A stretch of 63,148 nt of DNA, counting the filler, from Collodictyon triciliatum (lineage: Eukaryota): assembly GCA_043381765.1 (NCBI GenBank). It is 16 parts of 16 records of this genome, joined end to end, with 100 filler letters (N's around TTAATTAATTAA, not from the genome) between each part and the next. Parts side by side here need not be neighbours in the genome. Positions count along the whole stretch, not along the records: positions 56,655 to 60,395 come from JBHJMP010006940.1; positions 60,496 to 63,148 come from JBHJMP010006950.1; 14 more parts are not named here. The stretch is one strand, 5' to 3'. The translations under genes and the position numbers were made by a program. This document shows positions 15,319-60,670 of this stretch, piece by piece (position 1 is the first letter of the stretch; every line of letters begins with the position of its first letter). The notes under the pieces were generated by a model that was given only the letters and a program-made list of their open reading frames with translations, was not told the DNA's origin and ran no database searches.

Positions 15319-15830
15319 NNNNNNNNNNNNNNNNNNNNNNNNNNNNNNNNNNNNNNNNNNNNTTAATTAATTAANNNNNNNNNNNNNNNNNNNNNNNNNN
15401 NNNNNNNNNNNNNNNNNNGAGAGTGCTGATTTACGAAGGCAAGAAATCCTGATAGGATGCGCAAAAGGTGAAACTGTACTTATCCCAAGGATACTTCTGA
15501 TATATTTAATATACCAGTTCCACTTACAAGGGCAGCATTTCTTCGATAATGCGTATTACATGCCCATAAACCAATTCCATGGTCCGTCATCAAAAAGGGT
15601 TGTGCAAAGCAATCTCGAAGAAACTCTCGCTTTCACCGCGGTCGTTGATAAGCCAGACGGCTGGGTATTAGGAACCTTATTTGCCCCAACATATTAGCGC
15701 TGGAAAAAAAAAAGAAAAATACTTTTAAGCAAAGTACTCTAATGTGTGATGAAGGGGTATCCAGCAAAATCTATTTTAAAGTGTTAATACAGGGTTCGGA
15801 TTTGATAAAATATGGATTGAAAAACAAGGA

Positions 15831-16075
15831 TTTTTTTTTTCCTTTATTCGATTCAAAGTGTAGCGAGGTTATGCCATACAAAGGGGCGGGATGGCAGCGC
15901 ATGGGAGAGAGCAAACGCGAGTAGGAGAAGACACTACTGTGAAGAGGCTAGCACTGGAAAGAAATCAGTGATAGCGAGTTGGTCAGGTGGGCGTCCCAAC
16001 TGGTTGATTGGTTGCGTGCGTAGCTGGGGTTGGATATGTTGTGGGAGATATCGCATGACACATTCTCACATCTCT
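15831..16075 (-). mobile_element. 3' end of a LINE family (copy A)
   Basis: Homologous to 30007-30313 (+) and 49250-49530 (-); ends CACTTTGAATCGAATAAAGG followed by A10. Confidence 0.8.
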
Positions 16076-16986
16076 TGTTGTCTTATTTTAATATATATTT
16101 GTATTATTATCATAAATTATACTTATTATTTAATTAATCGCACAAATAATAATATGTAATGATAAAATAAGTATATTCCGGATTAGGATATTTTGGATAT
16201 ATTCATTGAATTCTTTATTCTGTGTATTATGACAAAAGAAGTAAATCTCCAAAACTTTCAATTCATTGAATATAAACCAATTGGACGAAAAGTTCATGTA
16301 GTCAATTCCAAATTGGGATGGGATTTCTGTCACAATTTTCGAACCATTCAAAGAAAATTACCCAAAAAATTACACCAGATTAAGGCCAATATAGGCAATC
16401 TGTCAACTTGGCAATTATAGCGATTTTATGTAAGTCGCTTGCTATCTATACTATTTTCTTAGCGCACAAGAGAAGCCGACTTTTTTTTTCAATTGAACTG
16501 CAGCATTTTCGGGTCTGTGCAAAGGTGATTCTGTGTCGCATTTGTAATTGGAACATTCAATGACGGTGCACCATAAGTAAAATAATCATAAAGTTGGTAG
16601 TTATTGATATCTATATTAAAATATAGTAAAATAATTGATATCAATATCTATCATAATTATAAATGATCTTGTCAATTTATTATCCACTTTTGTATAAATG
16701 ACACCAATGTAACGACTTCCCGTTCCGTGAAAACGGATTTCAGTTACACGCACCACAGGCTCGCGGAAGAATCAGCTTTTTTTTCCTGCGATGCAAGCAA
16801 TCAACAAAACCAGCAAACGATTACTTTTTTCTTTTTCTCAAGAAGACGAAAGAGCGGAGCAGAGAATAGTTTTGTTTTTCCTTTATTCAGTTGCGGATGC
16901 GATAGGGATGAGTGGGGATTGGGACTAACAAAGGGTCAAGCGAATGCTACAAAACCCATGAAATGAACGAGGGAGTGGGGCGGTGA

Positions 16987-18892
16987 TTAGGTGCGGCTGG
17001 CCTCCTCGATAAGCTTCAGGGCGGTTCGTATCTGGACGTTTTTCAGGTCCGGAACAAGCTCCTTCAAGTCCGCCTCGGTCAGGGCGACAAACTCAGCGCC
17101 AGTGAGCGGGGTTTCCTGGCAAACCTGAATGAGCCTCGGATTGGCGTTTTTCTCCTCTAGATAAGCTGTCAGTCTCTGGACGTTCATATCTTTGACGGAG
17201 CCCATCCTCGGTGTGGCCGGGACAGCAGCGGGATTGGAGATGATGCCCTTGAGCACGGCCTCGACCTGCTGGGTATTGATGCGAGTCTCGTAGTCTCTTT
17301 CCCAGCACTTGTGGATAAGGGCTGCGAGGTTAGAAGGACAGGTTGTAGGGATAGAGAGAGTTTTGCCGTTGGTCACACAGGCGCCAACCTGGCCGTCCGT
17401 CATGCCCTCGTACGGATACTCACCGCTCGCCATGGACCAGAGCACCACGCCGTACGAGTAGACGTCGCTGGGCAGCCCCATGCTCTTGCCGATCTCGAAG
17501 GCCTCGGGCGGAGACCAGTTCTTGGAGCCGCCGAACTTGCTTACCGAGTTGACCGAGACGCCGCTCTTTGCAAGGCCGAAGTCGGTCAGCTTGGCGACGC
17601 CGTTCACAAGCAGGACGTTCTCGGTCTTGAGGTCGCGGTGCTGGATGGGCCTTGGCCGCGTGTGCAGGTAGACGAGGCCCTGGATGATGTGCAGCCCGTA
17701 CTTGAGGGTCAGGTCGAGGCTGAGTGCCCCTTGCTTCTTGACCAGTGAGCAGAGCTCTCCGCCGTCTGCAAACTCCATCACGAGGAGCAGGTCCCTGCCG
17801 CGGAAGCCAAAGTCGAAGAGCGTCAGGATGTTTGGGTGCTGCAGCTCGAGCATCATGTCGCCCTCCTTCTCCGGGCCGGAGCCATCAGCGGCGGTGAGCA
17901 GAGACGCGTTCCCAACAAGCTTCACGGCGAAGAGGCCTGCCTTCAGCTGCACCTTGAAGACCATCCCGAAGCCGCCCTTGCCCAGGATGTTTTCTTTCTT
18001 CTCAAAGTCCATTGTCAGGAGATCGGCGTAGTTGCCGCGGGCCAGGCGGCTGGTTGGGGCGGCGTAGATGCCCGACTGGATGTTGGGACTGGCTACGACC
18101 TGTGTTGGTGGAGGGTGTGGGTGTCAGGTAAGTCTGTTAGCTTTTCTGGTTTCAGCTGCGGTGTCGACCTACGGTTAGGTTATGTCCTGTGTTGTGTATG
18201 TGGGAGTTGGGGGTGGATGTGTGCTTACGGGGTCGTAGAGCTGCAGCTTTCGGAGCGCGTCGGCAAAGTTCAGTGTCATACCAGACCAAGGTTTCTCTGT
18301 GTTGTTCCAGCAGGGGAGATTTGAGATGCCACGCGGGGCTCTCTTTATGGTTTGTGTGCCCTCCCATTCGATGAGGAGTGTTTTCAGATTTGTGAGCGCT
18401 GTGATCTGTGCTGGAAGCTCCTCCATCTGAGTGTATTGTTGTCAGTCATTTTCTATTAAACATAAATAGTAATATAATATATGAATAATATCATACCGGA
18501 TTTCTACGAACACTAAGATATGTGAGACCAGTCAAACATGATATTTGTGCAGGTAGCGATGACAGCTGATTGCCATAAACATAAAGTTCTATGAGACCAG
18601 TCAAACACGATATCTGTGCAGGTAGTGATGACAGCTGATTCTCATAAACATAAAGTTGTATGAGACCAGTCAAACACGATATTTGTGCAGGCAGTGATGA
18701 CAACTGATTGTCATCAAGATACAACTGTTTCAGACCAGTCAACAAAAAAACACCAGGCGGCACAGATGACAGATTCTTTTCACTGAGATCCAGAGATGTG
18801 GAGCTTTTTAGAGTGGCAATTGGTTTCCTTGAGAGTTTCCGGACTTCTTCCAAAAGCGCATCCACTTGGGCAGGTGTGAGACAGTCGGACAT
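16987..18892 (-). CDS. LRR - protein kinase (TKL-like) - SAM protein; exons 18892-18497, 18426-18229, 18099-16987
   Basis: 23-aa LRRs LTGLxxLYxxxNQLSSLPAQISC; kinase motifs GKGGFG, AVK, HRDLKTEN, DFG, PPE, SDVYSYG; C-terminal SAM-like LTGAEFVALTEADLKEL; phase-0 GT-AG introns. Confidence 0.9.
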
Positions 18893-19297
18893 CTGGACGG
18901 ATTCTGGCTGTATATGTAGGTAGACTGGCTGCGTGTCAATACAATACACATCATTTATTTGTTTTATGAGTCGACTTAACAATCACACAGGACAGAACTA
19001 CTCGAGTAAGGACGGTGGGGTTGTGCACTTGGAGATCAGAAAGTACTTTGAGAGTGAATAAGAAAGAAAAGAGGAGGATTTCGACAAGACGAGCTTAAAT
19101 ATCCCGCAAAGGCCGGCGAATTTTTCCAAGAAGACGACTTGTGCAGAACTTGTGTGCTTGTGCTTCCTTGGAAATTCACCGGTTCGGGGTTGGCCACNNN
19201 NNNNNNNNNNNNNNNNNNNNNNNNNNNNNNNNNNNNNNNNNTTAATTAATTAANNNNNNNNNNNNNNNNNNNNNNNNNNNNNNNNNNNNNNNNNNNN

Positions 19298-36100: not shown

Positions 36101-37320
36101 TCTATATTTCTTGATGTTCGAATATTTCCATTCATTTTGTCTAGCTTGCATACATAGCATTCAAATTGACAGAAATCAACAAAATTTGGTCGAATAGCTG
36201 ATATCTGTTTGGAAAACAACGATACCACATCAAAGATTTTGACAGAATTTTGGCTTGAACCATGTTCCACATTGTATCTTCGAACAACAACAGAAATTTT
36301 GTCTGCATGAATACGACAAAGGACCATAAACTCGTTCCCAGAAACCAAATAATTCTCCTTCGTTTCTGCGTTAAAATCAACATTCACATGTATGAGAGCT
36401 GTGTCTTTGAAAAAATCATCTTCATACTGAACTCCGGCTTGTGCCCCTTTTGTCAAACGAAGTGCTTGAATAATGACGTTGCTTTTATCGGAGAGTTGGA
36501 TTTCGCCGTTGGTAATTATTTCTACAAGCATTTCTCCGACACAATGTGTCTCTGGTTTTTCATTCCATAACGCCTTGATGTTTTCGCAATCCCCCATCAG
36601 TGAGGGAAAGGCGATGCATTCTCTGTTGTACTTTATTCCAAGACCGAAATGGTCAAATATTGTAAGAATTGTATTGAATACCTGTTCATCTAGGTCTGTA
36701 TTCAATTCTTGTTTGATTCGGTTTTTTAGCTTGCTCAACAAAATGATGCCATTTGAATTCTTACCGATGCCTTTGAAACTGAAGACACAGCGGAAAATGT
36801 TGATGAGAAAGAGTGGGTCTAAAAAGATACGATCTCTAGCACTCGCAATATTTGAGTACCAAATGATAGAGCCAAGGTCGTGGAGGAATTCAAGAGCACT
36901 ATCACACTGATTTTCATCCATTTTGAGGGGAGCTCTGACAAAATCGTATGTGTCTTGGATACTCTCGTACTTTTTGGATTGTCCTTTTAACGCTAAGTGC
37001 CTCTTCAGTTCAATATATGACTTCGGAACATATTTGTCCATGTTATCAAGCGTCATCATTCCCTCATATATCACTCTTTTCAATTCTGATACATTTGTAC
37101 CGCTTTTGTTGCTTACTTTCAAATCTGTATTGATGAAGATGTGGCGAGTCTCTTCGTTAAATTTCTGCTCATTTTCTTTTTTGATTCTTTCAATTTCCAT
37201 CCGCATCTCCTTGCTATAAGTTTGATTTTCACAATCTTGATGAGTCCCAGCAATTATGATTTTTGAGCCAGGTGCAAAGTCATCAAGCATTTTGACCCAG
37301 CGGCTGAGGTTGTTCTTCTC
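33180..37320 (-). CDS. Roco-family protein: ROC (partial)-COR-kinase-SAM-like-LRR; exons 37320-36018, 35950-34254, 34175-34107, 33981-33430, 33359-33180; both ends incomplete
   Basis: ROC G4/G5 IIIAGTHQD..VSNKSGTNVSEL; COR VPKSYIEL..ALEFLHDLGSIIWY..IFLDPLFL; kinase AKGSFG/HEDLKADN/DFG/APE; nine or more 23-aa LRRs. Confidence 0.88.
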
Positions 37321-56654: not shown

Positions 56655-57134
56655 AAATTCAGGAGCTTGCCCGCCGTACGCTATTTTTAACAATGCGATC
56701 TTGGCGTCAAATCGATCCATGTTGAACCTCTCCATTATATCAGCAAGTACTGCTTCACGGTTTTCGACATAAAATTTAATGTACTCATGGGGCAAATTAC
56801 GATTTTTCGCATACTGATATGCGATTGTGTAATGGCAATTTACAATATCAATGTCATGATAGTGTGCTTGACACATTGGGATTCTTATCCTACTTGAACT
56901 CATACATCCCAATGATTGACCCCGGGCTGGGTAAACCCTACCAACTCTCAGATTTTCAAAACCTTTTGCGAAATGGTAATTGACGTCCAGCAAATTCCCC
57001 TTTGTTAATTTTCGACACATTGCTGTAATTGCTTTTTTTTCTGATGCTGAGATAATTGAATCTGATTCAGCCAGAAGCATATTCGCAATGTTTACGTCAA
57101 AAAATTCGAATTTTGTGGCAAAGGTGGAGTTCAT
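56655..57134 (-). CDS. TVpol (family-A DNA polymerase-like domain of PLVs/virophages, usually fused to an SF3 helicase), truncated by contig end
   Basis: GRVYP..SLG..RIR..YHDIDIVNCHY (PolA motif A)..YVENRE..AKIALLKIAYGG (motif B, KxxxxxxxYG). Confidence 0.8.
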
Positions 57135-57212
57135 CTTGAATTATACAAGATTTTTATCTTTAAGTTCAAACGAATACGTATTTTTTTTTACAAAAATACT
57201 TTTACAAAAAAT

Positions 57213-57389
57213 TTAGTCAAATTTTACAACAATTTTACATTCTGGTAAATGTGATTTGATTTGATATTTTCTCTTTTTCTTTTTGCTTGATTTTTCCATG
57301 TTATAGACAAATTCCTGCAAATCATCAATGTTATCATACATTTCATTATGAATCACTTTATTTTTTAATGTTACAATTAGCTCATACAT
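57213..57389 (-). CDS. Small 58-aa viral hypothetical protein (below the ORF-track cutoff)
   Basis: MYELIVTLKNKVIHNEMYDNIDDLQEFVYNMEKSSKKKKRKYQIKSHLPECKIVVKFD*; preceded by the same upstream motif as the MCP gene. Confidence 0.6.
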   Translation of the reverse strand: MYELIVTLKNKVIHNEMYDNIDDLQEFVYNMEKSSKKKKRKYQIKSHLPECKIVVKFD

Positions 57390-57409
57390 AATTTTATATA
57401 GATAATAAT

Positions 57410-58132
57410 ATGAACGCTAAGCGAGTTTCAAATATAAAAATACAACCTTTGTCAAAACAAAAACCTGGCAAAAATTTGGGGATCCCCTACCCGATCCCAG
57501 ATATCTCTGTCAGAAATTTCATCTTAGGGGTTTTGGGCCCAACGGGTTCGAGTAAAACGACCCTGTACGCTAATCTGATCAGAAAACATTATTTCGAGGT
57601 ATTCAATAAAATTTATTTCTGCTCACCGAATGTGACGGATGAAGGGAAGGTATATGACAAGTCGCTGGACTCAATTGAATTCTCCGAGGAGCGTGTATTT
57701 CAGACAATAAATAATGAAATAGCAGATTATATAAAGGAGGATATAGAGTGTGACGAGGAATTTCAAAAAGAGGACTTCAGAGCGCTGCTGATAATCGATG
57801 ATTTGGCAAATGAATTGAAAAGCATCAGGCATACCAATCTAACGAAATTAATTTTAAAGTCTAGGCACTTGCATCTGTCTATAATTATGATCTCTCACAA
57901 GTTTACATATTTCCAGCGAATTCACCGGACCAATTTCACACATTTCATTATGTATCGGAGTAAATCAAAGAATGAAATAAAATCAATATATGACGACATC
58001 ATCGATTTGCCTGAAGAAAAATTCAATCAGTTCTACGAATATGCGACCGCCGAAAAATATAATTTTCTGTATATTATTTGTAACTCTAATCCACAATTAT
58101 ACTTTAAGAATTTTGAGGAAGAATTAACATGA
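57410..58132 (+). CDS. A32-like (FtsK-HerA) DNA packaging ATPase
   Basis: Walker A GPTGSSKTT (G>S variant), FNKIYFCSP, Walker B LLIIDD, Arg-finger SRH, RTN; 240 aa. Confidence 0.9.
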   Translation: MNAKRVSNIKIQPLSKQKPGKNLGIPYPIPDISVRNFILGVLGPTGSSKTTLYANLIRKHYFEVFNKIYFCSPNVTDEGKVYDKSLDSIEFSEERVFQTINNEIADYIKEDIECDEEFQKEDFRALLIIDDLANELKSIRHTNLTKLILKSRHLHLSIIMISHKFTYFQRIHRTNFTHFIMYRSKSKNEIKSIYDDIIDLPEEKFNQFYEYATAEKYNFLYIICNSNPQLYFKNFEEELT

Positions 58133-58152
58133 GTTTTTTTATATCTATATAT

Positions 58153-58563
58153 ATGGTGTTTACCAGAAGAAGTTTAAAGAAGTTTTTTAAAGGCGCAGCA
58201 AAAGTAGTCAGGAAGGGAATGAATATAGGTGAGAAAGTTATCAACGCCGTGGACAGAGGAACAGGCGGGGGACTACGGGACTTGGCTCGTACAGCAACAG
58301 GGGGATTAAGTGAGCAAGCGCTCAAGGTATACAACGCAAATAAAAAATATGTAAAAAAGGGGCTCGACCTTGCTGAAGGAAAGAAGGGGGCGACGGTTGC
58401 GAATCTCGTCGAGGGTAGCAAATTACAAAAGCCCTTCGAACAAGGTACAAAACAATTACAAAAATATGAACCAGTTATCAGAAAAGTTGGTCAACAAAAT
58501 GAATCTCTTGGAAAGGTAATCAAATCATATGACGATAATGTAAAAAATAAAATAGGTTATTGA
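58153..58563 (+). CDS. Small basic putative virion protein between ATPase and MCP
   Basis: Lys-rich amphipathic N-terminus MVFTRRSLKKFFKGAAKVVRKG, GG motifs; ATG preceded by TATCTATATA. Confidence 0.6.
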   Translation: MVFTRRSLKKFFKGAAKVVRKGMNIGEKVINAVDRGTGGGLRDLARTATGGLSEQALKVYNANKKYVKKGLDLAEGKKGATVANLVEGSKLQKPFEQGTKQLQKYEPVIRKVGQQNESLGKVIKSYDDNVKNKIGY

Positions 58564-58587
58564 AAAAATTATTTTCTATTTTAAATT

Positions 58588-60340
58588 ATGGATTCTTAAC
58601 CAGAAGAGCTACAGTTTCGAAATATCACAAGTAAAAAAAAGACCATTCTTGAAAAACAACAAAGACAAGTACTGCCAAGCAACGGCACAGAGCAGACGGC
58701 AAATTTTTCATCTGGTCCTCAAATTGTGTTTAGGATTCCAATTGACAACGAGTGGAGCATTCAAATGGACTGCTCATATCATAGCGGATTTGACTGTTAA
58801 GGGGTTGTCTACTGAAGATAGTTATGATAATCTAAAAAGGACACAAACAAATATAGATAATGCAACCAAGATTCCAATTTTGGCCCCATGTGAGAGCTAC
58901 GAGTCGTTTATTTACAGAATTGCAGTGTACTGTAACGGTTCGGAAGTTGAAAGAATCGACTCGTATAATGTACTTGAGACTTTTAAACATAATTGGTGTA
59001 ATAATCAAAATTGGGTCAATCTTATGTCAGGTGGAATGGGAGTGGGTCAATCTATTTTAGAAAAATCCAAATTACTGTTAGGTGGACTGGCTACTGATGC
59101 AACCAGTTCAAATACTATTTTAATAGGATTTCCACTTCGTCACTGTGGGTTGATGAATATAACGACACTTTTGCCGGCTTACTTACTGGGTCCCAATTCT
59201 CTTGAAATTCGTATCTGGTTGGCACCAGCCTCTGAATGTTTTACATATGGTTCTATAACCAATACTGCAAATAATAATTATCGATACATAAATTGGACAC
59301 CTAACACAGCCAACGCTATTAGCTATACTCTTTCAAATATTCATATGAATATTAACTACATTCAAACTGAGCCTAGCTATAACAATGCACTTTCCCAATA
59401 TTTGGTTTCCAACAATTTGCAGATTCCAATTGAAACTTACTTTATGACCCAATTCCCAATTAATAAAGGGCAAAATGGTTGGGTTACTCAGAATATTTCG
59501 GTTCAGTACAGTAATATAAACGCAATCTATCTTATTTTTACACGAAATACAGAGCAGGGTACTGTTGCATACCTAGGTACTGACCGCATGCATGCTATTG
59601 AGGGAATAAGTCAAGCCCGTCTAACAGTCAATGGTAAAGTTATGCCTAGTGTGCCTATTCAATTCCAAAACCCAGGGTATCTTACTTATACAACCGCAAA
59701 TTTAGGCGTTGCAAATGACTCTGGATTACTTCATTCAGGAGTTCAGGGACAAGCTTTGTGTCAACAGCCAGAGGCTCTTAACTATTTAATGAAGGCCTTG
59801 GGATACAACACAAGCGCAGAAATGCTAGGCCAGGTTAATTTCCCAGTTGTCGAGGCATCTCCTTTATTGTGTACATCTGATACCGCAGCCAATGGCAATA
59901 ATGTACAGCATATTTATAGTAAAACTGGGGCTGGTGCGTTTTATGCATCAAATAAGGCGGTTCATAATATAATGTTACAAGGTGCAGTTGTTGGTACATC
60001 TACGCCAGCAAACCGAAATTTAAATCCATTTTCAAATGAAGAAATATTTTGGAAAACTCCGACATATTTTGCACTTGGTTGGACTATGACCCGATCAGAT
60101 TACTCAGACGAGTTTGAGTTGTCAGGATATAACGCATCTTCCAATTCTGGAATTGTACAGGTAGGTCTACAGTTTGGAGCATCTTGTAATGACGCTCATA
60201 AAGTTACCGCAGCTAATGCAGCAGATACTAATGCTAAATTATCCTCAGTTACTCCCATTGATAATTACACATGTTGGGTCATCATCGAGCACACTCGTGT
60301 GTTGGATATTGGCAAAGACAATGCCCAGGTACTTTACTAA
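58588..60340 (+). pseudogene. PLV-type major capsid protein with an in-frame TAA at codon 4 and a +1 frameshift near 58780
   Basis: MDS*PEELQF..VLPSNG..QIVFRIP..SY (frameshift) IADL..FIYRIAVYCNGSEVERIDSYNVL..LEIRIWLAP..LTVNGKVMPS..HTRVLDI; about 580 aa, beta-rich, with the N-terminal PxNG/IxFxIP and ExIxxYN motifs of PLV MCPs. Confidence 0.85.
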
Positions 60341-60670
60341 ATTATTTTTTCATTAACAAAAAATAATTTATCTTCGAACTAGCTGCATGAGGTAANNNNN
60401 NNNNNNNNNNNNNNNNNNNNNNNNNNNNNNNNNNNNNNNTTAATTAATTAANNNNNNNNNNNNNNNNNNNNNNNNNNNNNNNNNNNNNNNNNNNNGTTTT
60501 TATTGTTTTTATTGTTTTTATTGTTTTTATTGTTTTTATTGTTTTTATTGTTTTTATTGTTTTTATTGTTTTTATTGTTTTTATTGTTTTTTTTTATTAT
60601 CGTTTCTATATTTCTTAAATTTAGTTCATGTAATATCTTAAAAAATATTTTGGACACTTCATTATTTCAG

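What the first reader, a model, noticed from the sequence alone, without database searches (positions are those of the whole stretch)
56655..60395. Endogenous Polinton-like virus (TVpol + packaging ATPase + MCP), likely an undescribed virus of this protist
Seen: a compact intronless module with a PolA-like TVpol divergent from a morphogenesis block of A32 ATPase, basic protein and ~580-aa capsid-like protein. Known: TVpol-helicase plus A32 ATPase plus double-jelly-roll MCP is the gene set of Polinton-like viruses and some virophages, which integrate into protist genomes. Inference: part of a larger provirus. Lesions in the MCP argue for an integrated decaying copy. Unlike most contigs this one does not end in microsatellites, consistent with breakage at a multicopy element.
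Basis: partly seen in the sequence, partly recalled or inferred. Interest (0 to 1): 0.85.

Follow-up and report, generated by a model that had tools for sequence, protein, structure and literature searches.

The report
Polinton-like virus fragment on lone contig
This is a short, stand-alone assembly contig carrying part of a Polinton-like virus genome whose capsid gene is broken; the virus type is real but well known, and its integration into the host genome is not shown.

Summary
Bases 56655-60395 carry a compact, intron-free module. It has the first 160 codons of a PolA-like (TVpol)-helicase replicase on the minus strand. On the plus strand are an A32-type packaging ATPase, a 144-aa basic protein and a ~584-codon major capsid gene. 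The capsid gene has a stop at codon 4 and a 2-bp deletion after codon 61.

An AlphaFold model of an intact 94%-identical homologue matches double jelly-roll capsid proteins of giant viruses and virophages.

The context differs from what the finding implies. The window is 16 unrelated contigs joined by N44-TTAATTAATTAA-N44 linkers, and the finding is one whole 3741-bp contig. There is no host flank, junction, integrase or terminal repeat. No whole genome is held for this window.

Relatives with intact genes and the same gene order occur in metagenome contigs, and public freshwater metagenome and RNA-library runs hold near-identical pieces.

The lesions, and eight private changes at otherwise invariant capsid residues, favour a decaying integrated copy. 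A co-sequenced virus or a chimeric assembly is not excluded.

TVpol-helicase Polinton-like viruses endogenous in protists are already well described, so this is a new member of a known kind. Interest is modest.

The parts
56655..60395 (.). One complete assembly contig (3741 bp, GC 0.362), bounded on both sides by N44-TTAATTAATTAA-N44 contig linkers
56655..57134 (-). First 160 codons of a PolA-like (TVpol)-S3H helicase replicase, cut off by the contig end. Full-length relatives are 697-824 aa. The fragment holds GRVY (conserved Arg), YHDID (first palm Asp pair) and RFDAK / AYGG (RxxxK fingers motif). The second palm Asp and the helicase lie beyond the contig.
57135..57409 (.). AT-rich divergent intergenic region between the replicase and the ATPase. 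The ~30 bases before the ATPase ATG are identical in metagenome relative L002.
57410..58132 (+). Packaging ATPase, 240 aa, intact. Walker A is GPTGSSKT and Walker B is LLIIDD. Pfam Pox_A32.
   Evidence: 92% aa identity and dN/dS 0.056 against L002
58129..58563 (+). 144-aa basic protein (pI 10.1) with a hydrophobic N-terminus, intact. Its ATG overlaps the ATPase stop. Conserved in relatives; function unknown.
58588..60340 (+). Major capsid protein gene (double jelly-roll), about 584 codons, disrupted
58597..58599 (+). In-frame TAA at MCP codon 4, where the 6 relatives displayed have Leu
58770..58771 (+). Site of a 2-bp deletion relative to all relatives, shifting the MCP frame after codon 61
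   Evidence: table 4

Best explanation
The contig is a 3.7-kb piece of a Polinton-like virus genome (PLV; Preplasmiviricota, the group recently called Aquintoviricetes).

It shows the junction of two modules. The replication module is a PolA-like TVpol primase-polymerase fused, in full-length relatives, to a D5-like superfamily-3 helicase. The morphogenesis module is an A32/FtsK-type packaging ATPase, a small basic protein and a double jelly-roll major capsid protein. The two modules are transcribed divergently from a 275-bp AT-rich spacer.

In a working virus the replicase would prime and copy the genome, the MCP would build the icosahedral shell and the ATPase would pump DNA into it. This part is inferred from the families, not tested.

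This particular copy cannot make capsid protein, because the MCP has a stop at codon 4 and a frameshift after codon 61. [quoted passage not shown] It would be one of several closely related and partly recombinant copies, which would explain why the short-read contig breaks at both ends inside or just beyond viral sequence. Integration itself is inferred, not shown.
For: Virus identity:
- ATPase: Pox_A32 E 7.1e-14; PHROG terminase large subunit E 5.5e-8.
- MCP fold: 20 homologues at 94-40% identity. The AF2 model of the 94%-identical intact homologue P0001 has pLDDT 82.2 and pTM 0.84.
- Foldseek against PDB: SGIV MCP E 6.5e-16, then faustovirus, PBCV-1 Vp54, ASFV p72, mavirus (1.5e-12) and Sputnik (2.1e-12).
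- Foldseek against BFVD: best E 3.6e-21; hits include a Qinghai Lake virophage MCP and a Tetraselmis viridis virus S1 protein.

Replicase:
- 9 longer relatives were found, 8 of them with DUF5906.
- The profile matches the NrS-1 helicase region at E 4.8e-27.
- Invariant G65-R66, D94, D96, K145 and D256-G257 in 25 of 25 aligned relatives. These fit the TV-Pol features listed in PMC2579912.
- VIA-align puts family-A DNA polymerases in 12 of the first 21 rows (Z 7.4-5.2) for model residues 82-294.
- The nearest ESM Atlas clusters are Preplasmiviricota (score 0.96).

Gene order: metagenome contig L002 has the same order, with an intact MCP.

Decay:
- A nonsense codon plus a 2-bp deletion.
- 8 private and mostly radical substitutions at the 259 columns invariant in 14 relatives. 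All fall in alignment columns 143-231. The two nearest relatives have 0.
- The lesions are recent. dN/dS against L002 is 0.05-0.12 for all four genes. The 3' two-thirds of the MCP are 98-100% identical to intact P0001 in 60-column blocks.

Several variants in the source: the MCP is mosaic, with the 5' third nearest P0002 and the rest nearest P0001.
Against: - No host DNA, junction, integrase, TIR or target-site duplication is on the contig. The neighbouring sequences in the window are other contigs, and no genome is held to look for the rest.
- Pieces 100% identical over 59303-60395 occur in a freshwater metagenome, and over 59576-59962 and 60034-60304 in an RNA library. A circulating virus or another organism in the sample could therefore be the source.
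- Both lesions and all 8 private substitutions lie in about 560 bp, while the rest of the gene is near-identical to an intact relative. A stretch of poor or chimeric assembly could produce that pattern.
- P0003 and P0006 also have 7 and 8 private substitutions, although these are spread along the protein and mostly conservative.
- The replicase model is poor (pLDDT 58.7). Foldseek gave no hit at E<=0.001. The VIA Z values are below the tool's own caution line of 8.
Confidence: 0.6

Rival explanations
1. A co-sequenced free or episomal PLV, or a PLV belonging to another organism in the culture or sample, rather than an element integrated in the sequenced eukaryote. The contig would be a piece of a viral population assembled alongside the host.
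For: - The contig has no host sequence.
- Near-identical and 100%-identical pieces occur in freshwater metagenomes and metatranscriptome libraries. 20 of the 24 listed runs hold part of the stretch, across 11 studies; details are.
- All genes are under strong purifying selection against relatives.
- A mosaic MCP is expected in a mixed viral population.
Against: - A consensus assembly of a replicating virus should not carry a nonsense codon and a frameshift in its only capsid gene.
- The private radical substitutions at invariant residues point the same way.
- None of the runs laid shows these lesions where they cover the site (table 4 and loose ends at 58772).
Confidence: 0.3
2. The lesions are artefacts. 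The 5' third of the MCP in this contig would be a low-coverage or chimeric consensus of several variants, and the real element or elements have an intact capsid gene.
For: - Both lesions and all 8 private substitutions cluster between about 58597 and 59150.
- From MCP alignment column 306 onward, the 60-column blocks are 98-100% identical to intact P0001.
- The gene is mosaic between two known variants.
- The assembly is highly fragmented, with internal N runs.
Against: - A base substitution creating TAA and a 2-bp deletion outside a homopolymer are not typical short-read errors. This rests on general knowledge.
- The ATPase and the 144-aa gene on the same contig are clean.
Confidence: 0.2
3. 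It is a virophage in the taxonomic sense (Sputnik/mavirus-type MCP lineage) rather than a PLV.
For: - TVpol-S3H replicases are shared with Sputnik and other virophages (PMC4642659, PMC2579912, passages read).
- Sputnik and mavirus MCP structures are matched at E about 1e-12.
Against: - Giant-virus MCPs and unnamed BFVD entries score better than virophage MCPs.
- No Pfam or PDB sequence-level match to any virophage protein.
- No cysteine protease is seen in the 7 related loci, though these loci are short.
Confidence: 0.08

Closest known systems
[quoted passage not shown] 2015, PMC4642659), and cluster C1 PLVs of Rhodomonas lacustris and other cryptophytes (PMC12220804)
   Same: - PolA-like TVpol fused to an S3H helicase in full-length relatives.
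- A32-type packaging ATPase.
- DJR MCP.
- Compact, intron-free genes.
- Relatives occur in freshwater metagenome and RNA-library runs.
- This group is reported both free and endogenous.
   Different: - Only 3.7 kb is present.
- No minor capsid protein, integrase or TIR on the contig.
- The MCP has no sequence-level match to any named protein in the libraries searched.
- I could not compare it with those papers' sequence sets, because supplements are closed and no reference sequences were at hand.
Sputnik V13-type TV-Pol/D5 helicase replicase (Iyer et al. 2008, PMC2579912)
   Same: - The domain order inferred from relatives.
- A conserved Arg, two palm Asp sites and an RxxxK motif in the expected order.
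   Different: - No significant sequence match to any solved or named TV-Pol or PolA.
- Fold support is moderate only.
DJR major capsid proteins of Nucleocytoviricota and virophages: SGIV, PBCV-1 Vp54, ASFV p72, mavirus, Sputnik
   Same: Double jelly-roll fold (Foldseek probability 1.00, TM 0.4-0.57).
   Different: - About 10% sequence identity.
- Gene context is a small PLV-type module, not a giant virus.

Membership tests
Polinton-like viruses (minimal morphogenetic module, Yutin 2015) | Double jelly-roll major capsid protein | tested here: met
   The model of intact homologue P0001 (94% identical to the window's in-frame 522 residues) has pLDDT 82.2 and pTM 0.84. Top PDB and BFVD matches are DJR MCPs. 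The window's own copy is disrupted.
Polinton-like viruses (minimal morphogenetic module, Yutin 2015) | FtsK/HerA-type (A32) packaging ATPase | tested here: met
   Pox_A32 E 7.1e-14, above cut-off. Walker A and B present.
Polinton-like viruses (minimal morphogenetic module, Yutin 2015) | Minor capsid (penton) protein | tested here: inconclusive
   None on this contig, which ends 55 bp after the MCP stop. Relative L004 has a 291-aa ORF two genes downstream of the MCP with no Pfam match. It was not folded.
Polinton-like viruses | Genome of roughly 14-40 kb, often with terminal inverted repeats | not testable with these tools
   The contig is 3741 bp. Proteins of relatives are recorded on contigs up to 24,938 bp, but those contigs could not be fetched.
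Polinton-like viruses | MCP groups with PLV MCPs rather than with virophage or giant-virus MCPs | not tested
   No reference PLV MCP sequences were available for a tree. The fold search cannot separate these groups.
TV-Pol family (Iyer et al. 2008) | Beta-hairpin with an absolutely conserved Arg, two conserved palm Asp sites, and a fingers module with RxxxK | tested here: met
   G65-R66, D94/D96, K145 and D256-G257 are invariant in 25 of 25 relatives. R141xxxK145 is present in the window and its near relatives but R141 is not invariant. The window fragment holds GRVY, YHDID and RFDAK. Mapping these motifs onto the published features is my own reading, not a profile match. D256 lies beyond the contig end.
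TV-Pol family (Iyer et al. 2008) | Family-A polymerase-like palm and fingers fold | tested here: inconclusive
   The model of P0027 is poor (pLDDT 58.7). Foldseek gave 0 hits at E<=0.001. VIA-align put 12 family-A DNA polymerases in the first 21 rows, at Z 7.4-5.2 over residues 82-294, below the tool's caution line of Z 8.
TV-Pol family (Iyer et al. 2008) | Fusion to a D5-like superfamily-3 helicase | tested here: met
   Shown in relatives only. DUF5906 in 4 of 4 scanned. NrS-1 helicase region E 4.8e-27 and VapE-like E 1.6e-5. The window's copy ends at codon 160, before this domain.
Endogenous viral element | Physical junction between viral and host DNA | tested here: not met
   No host sequence on the contig. 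The flanks in the window are separate contigs. No genome is held. No contig of the four runs laid spans the stretch.
Endogenous viral element | Inactivating lesions or relaxed constraint | tested here: met
   Nonsense codon and 2-bp frameshift in the MCP. 8 private substitutions at invariant columns against 0 in the two nearest relatives. An assembly artefact is not excluded.

The most novel reading that the evidence does not exclude
The contig is a true endogenous copy, and so gives the first host link for a rare freshwater PLV lineage.

- The lineage's MCP family has only 32 representative clusters among 1.84 billion proteins.
- It was not found in IMG/VR by four pattern scans.
- Pieces identical to this copy sit in freshwater metagenome and RNA-library contigs.

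If so, the sequenced eukaryote would be the natural host of an element that is active in lakes now. It would carry several recombining copies, some decaying.
Probability: 0.4. Interest if true: 0.5.

Novelty: new member of a known kind. Interest (0 to 1): 0.3.

Why it matters
Most PLVs known from metagenomes have no assigned host, and host genomes that carry them are what allow such links (PMC12220804, abstract). If this contig proves to be integrated, it ties one freshwater PLV lineage to one eukaryote. It would also add a case of a recently inactivated, mosaic copy. As it stands it is a short fragment of a well-known kind of element, and its main practical lesson is that the window's apparent flanks are other contigs.

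Tried and rejected
- Whole-genome search for other pieces of the element: no genome is held for this window.
- IMG/VR viral contigs: four scans (MCP, MCP alignment, replicase alignment, ATPase) found no relatives. One scan of prokaryote genome contigs also found none. These scans use a few peptide patterns, so absence is weak.
- Sequence-profile searches of the PDB: nothing for the MCP. Nothing for the polymerase domain; only the helicase part matched.
- Pfam and PHROGs gave nothing for the MCP, the 144-aa protein or the replicase fragment. Pfam gave nothing for the ORFs downstream of the MCP in L004 or for four distant MCP relatives.
- Foldseek on the low-confidence replicase model: no hit at E<=0.001.
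- Giant-virus-type 'TCTA' late promoter upstream of the MCP. TCTA is present in the window, L001 and L002 but reads TCTT in L003-L006, so I dropped it as a claim.
- Host taxon: an ESM Atlas look-up of a kinase from another contig gave no informative taxa. Rfam gave only 3 tRNAs in the window.
- Sequencing runs: no run holds half or more of the stretch; the best share is 0.32.
- Laid contigs: the four runs laid leave most of 56655-58500 uncovered, and no record spans the whole stretch. This says nothing about expression or absence of those genes.
- Earlier findings of this scan: three look-ups returned nothing.
Full report
**What the window is.** Reading the borders of the finding shows N44-TTAATTAATTAA-N44 on both sides. 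A script found 15 such linkers, which split the window into 16 pieces. Thirteen pieces are 3.74-3.78 kb; the others are 4685, 5544 and 2653 bp, the last cut by the window end.

The window is therefore a concatenation of separate contigs of a fragmented assembly. The finding, 56655-60395, is exactly one of them (3741 bp, GC 0.362). The WD40 gene to its left and the kelch-repeat gene to its right are on other contigs and carry no linkage information. No whole genome is held for this window.

By my reading of the end strings, 4 of 16 contigs have no simple repeat at either end: 15419-19197, 26992-31676, 31777-37320 and this one.

**The genes.**
- 56655-57134 (-): 160 codons from an ATG, running off the contig.
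- 57410-58132 (+): 240 aa.
- 58129-58563 (+): 144 aa. Its ATG overlaps the preceding TGA.
- 58588-60340 (+): a capsid-like gene.

**ATPase and basic protein.** Pfam gives Pox_A32 for the 240-aa protein (E 7.1e-14, 52.3 bits, cut-off 22.8). It gives nothing above cut-off for the other three proteins. PHROGs gives a terminase-large-subunit family for the ATPase (E 5.5e-8). Walker A (GPTGSSKT) and Walker B (LLIIDD) are present. The 144-aa protein is basic (pI 10.1) with a hydrophobic N-terminus. It is conserved in relatives and has no family match.

**Capsid gene: homologues.** The big protein collection holds 20 homologues at 94-40% identity. All but one partial sequence are 573-632 aa, and none is named beyond 'hypothetical protein'. 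The six I displayed all begin MD[S/N]LPEELQF.

**Capsid gene: lesions.** In the window this start is at 58588, but codon 4 is TAA where the relatives have Leu. The frame then shifts after codon 61, because the window lacks 2 bp present in relatives. Contigs of public runs show the same 2 extra letters at 58770/58771 (table 4). From 58772 to the TAA at 60338-60340 the frame is open for 522 codons.

**Capsid gene: how rare it is.** A profile search of 1.84 billion representative proteins found only 32 at E<=0.001. The MCP family is small.

**Capsid gene: fold.** Profile-to-PDB sequence search found nothing. I folded the intact 94%-identical homologue P0001 with a 33-sequence alignment. The model has mean pLDDT 82.2 and pTM 0.84 and is strand-rich.

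Foldseek against the PDB gave 243 matches at E<=0.001. These were headed by the SGIV MCP (6.5e-16), the faustovirus MCP, PBCV-1 Vp54, ASFV p72, the EhV-201 capsid, and the mavirus (1.5e-12) and Sputnik (2.1e-12) MCPs. BFVD gave a best E of 3.6e-21 and many MCPs of giant viruses, virophages, adintovirus and Tetraselmis viridis virus S1.

**Replicase: relatives and helicase.** The 160-aa fragment has 9 longer relatives (58-88% identity over the fragment). Eight of them are 697-824 aa and carry DUF5906. DUF5906 was confirmed in 4 of 4 scanned, with a VapE-like domain above cut-off in 2 of the 4. A profile of 25 relatives matches the helicase region of the NrS-1 primase-polymerase (E 4.8e-27) and a VapE-like protein (1.6e-5). 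The C-terminal half in relatives is thus a D5-like S3H helicase.

**Replicase: polymerase domain.** No sequence-level match to any polymerase was obtained.

The 25-sequence alignment has invariant G65-R66, R84, D94, D96, N99, Y122, R126, K145, Q229 and D256-G257. This is the order of features that Iyer et al. give for TV-Pol: a hairpin Arg, two palm Asp sites, and a fingers module with RxxxK (PMC2579912, passages read). Mapping one onto the other is my own reading. The window's fragment holds GRVY, YHDID and RFDAK.

The AF2 model of P0027 is poor (pLDDT 58.7), and Foldseek gave no hit at E<=0.001. VIA-align against 48,161 chains put family-A DNA polymerases in 12 of the first 21 rows for model residues 82-294. 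These were Pol theta Z 7.4, Pol nu 7.1, Pol gamma 7.1, Klenow 7.0, T7 DNAP 6.6 and others down to 5.2, with T7-type RNA polymerases at Z 4.8. Primase-helicases matched residues 304-779. The tool warns that Z under 8 can be a common arrangement, so I count this as consistent, not decisive.

The nearest ESM Atlas clusters for residues 1-430 are viral, labelled Preplasmiviricota (score 0.96, 202 of 256 features).

Taken together, the 'PolA-like TVpol' call is probably right. The window holds only the first fifth of the gene.

**Relatives and gene order.** One metagenome scan returned 7 loci. L002 (5244 bp) has the same order: replicase (-), a 240-aa ATPase, a 144-aa protein and the MCP, with the MCP intact from its ATG.

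L004 shows what follows the MCP in a relative. There is a 170-aa Lys/Glu-rich ORF on the other strand, a 291-aa ORF and a further ORF. None has a Pfam match. The 291-aa ORF is a candidate penton protein but was not tested.

**Selection and decay.** Against L002, dN/dS is 0.056 for the ATPase, 0.053 for the 144-aa gene, 0.122 for the replicase fragment and 0.078 for the MCP (0.075 against L001). The lineage is under strong purifying selection, so the lesions are recent.

Among 15 close MCP sequences, the window has 8 substitutions at the 259 columns that are invariant in the other 14. They are L>C, L>V, N>S, S>N, Y>V, Q>L, Y>H and L>C, and all fall in alignment columns 143-231. Its two nearest relatives have none. 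P0003 and P0006 have 7 and 8, but these are spread along the protein and mostly conservative. With the 40%-identical P0020 included, the count for the window falls to 2 of 135 columns, within the range of the others.

The MCP is also mosaic. Columns 66-305 are closest to P0002, and from column 306 on the 60-column blocks are 98-100% identical to P0001.

Damage confined to about 560 bp next to a stretch almost identical to an intact relative fits two readings. One is a decaying copy that recombined or was assembled together with a fresher one. The other is a locally poor consensus.

**Occurrence elsewhere.** No public run holds half or more of the stretch. The best share is 0.32, and 20 of the 24 listed runs hold a part, across 11 studies. 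Where an organism is recorded, it is a freshwater metagenome in all but one run (wastewater); four runs carry no label. Seven of the 20 holders are recorded as RNA.

I laid four runs. In one DNA run, contigs are 100% identical over 59303-60395. In one RNA library, contigs are 100% identical over 59576-59962 and 60034-60304. Other contigs are 85-99% alike. No record spans the whole stretch, and none joins it to unrelated long sequence in a way I could read as a host junction.

The tool cautions that RNA-library contigs do not prove transcription. I say only that near-identical MCP sequence is present in such libraries from two studies.

**Verdict on identity.** The contig is a piece of a Polinton-like virus genome: a TVpol-S3H replicase divergent from an ATPase, small basic protein and DJR MCP block.

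[quoted passage not shown] It is called widespread in PLVs of freshwater and marine cryptophytes, where over a thousand complete endogenous PLVs were reported (PMC12220804, abstract and passages). PolA-helicase fusions and module mosaicism are reported as common in this virus group (bioRxiv 10.64898/2026.10.13.758929, passages). Large-scale endogenization in protists is the subject of PMC10120064, for which I saw the search listing and the start of the abstract only.

**Verdict on 'endogenous'.** Integration is not shown.
- For it: two inactivating lesions in the only capsid gene, private radical substitutions, and contig breaks consistent with several related copies.
- Against it, or neutral: no host sequence, identical pieces in environmental data, and clustering of all the damage in one short stretch.

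I put integration in the sequenced organism at about 0.6, a co-sequenced virus or foreign element at about 0.3, and the lesions being artefacts at about 0.2. The last overlaps with both of the others.

**Novelty.** This is a new member of a known kind. In the collections I could search it carries no name.

Noticed in passing
window 1-63148: The window is 16 separate contigs joined by 15 N44-TTAATTAATTAA-N44 linkers. Thirteen are 3.74-3.78 kb. Many end in microsatellites or homopolymers. Any cross-linker 'synteny' in this window is meaningless.
   Followed up: yes
window 58560-58587; L001-L006 upstream of the MCP: A conserved ATTATTTTCT lies about 10-15 nt before the MCP ATG in 7 of 7 loci, although the MCPs are only 60-86% identical to the window's. 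It is possibly a promoter or leader element. The TCTA core seen in the window is not conserved (TCTT in 4 loci).
   Followed up: partly
window 58772-60337: The MCP is mosaic. The 5' third is closest to P0002 (up to 100% in 60-column blocks) and the 3' two-thirds are 98-100% identical to P0001. This reflects either recombination between co-resident variants or a chimeric assembly.
   Followed up: partly
window 58925-59150: Eight private substitutions at residues invariant in 14 relatives cluster here, just downstream of the two lesions.
   Followed up: partly
window 31777-37320 and 15419-19197: Other contigs carry LRR-kinase and ROCO/COR-like genes and a SAM-domain kinase, in long open exons. 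Contigs differ strongly in GC (0.34-0.54). Three tRNA genes are at 7732-7804, 27112-27184 and 31487-31558.
   Followed up: no
L004 2-90: The first ~30 codons of the partial ORF at the start of this metagenome contig do not match the 144-aa protein family. They look like a junk or adapter-derived contig end; that impression is recalled and was not tested.
   Followed up: no
L004 2251-4198: Downstream of the MCP in a relative there is a 170-aa Lys/Glu-rich ORF with an (SN)n run on the other strand, a 291-aa ORF (candidate penton) and a Gly/Thr-rich ORF. None has a Pfam match.
   Followed up: partly
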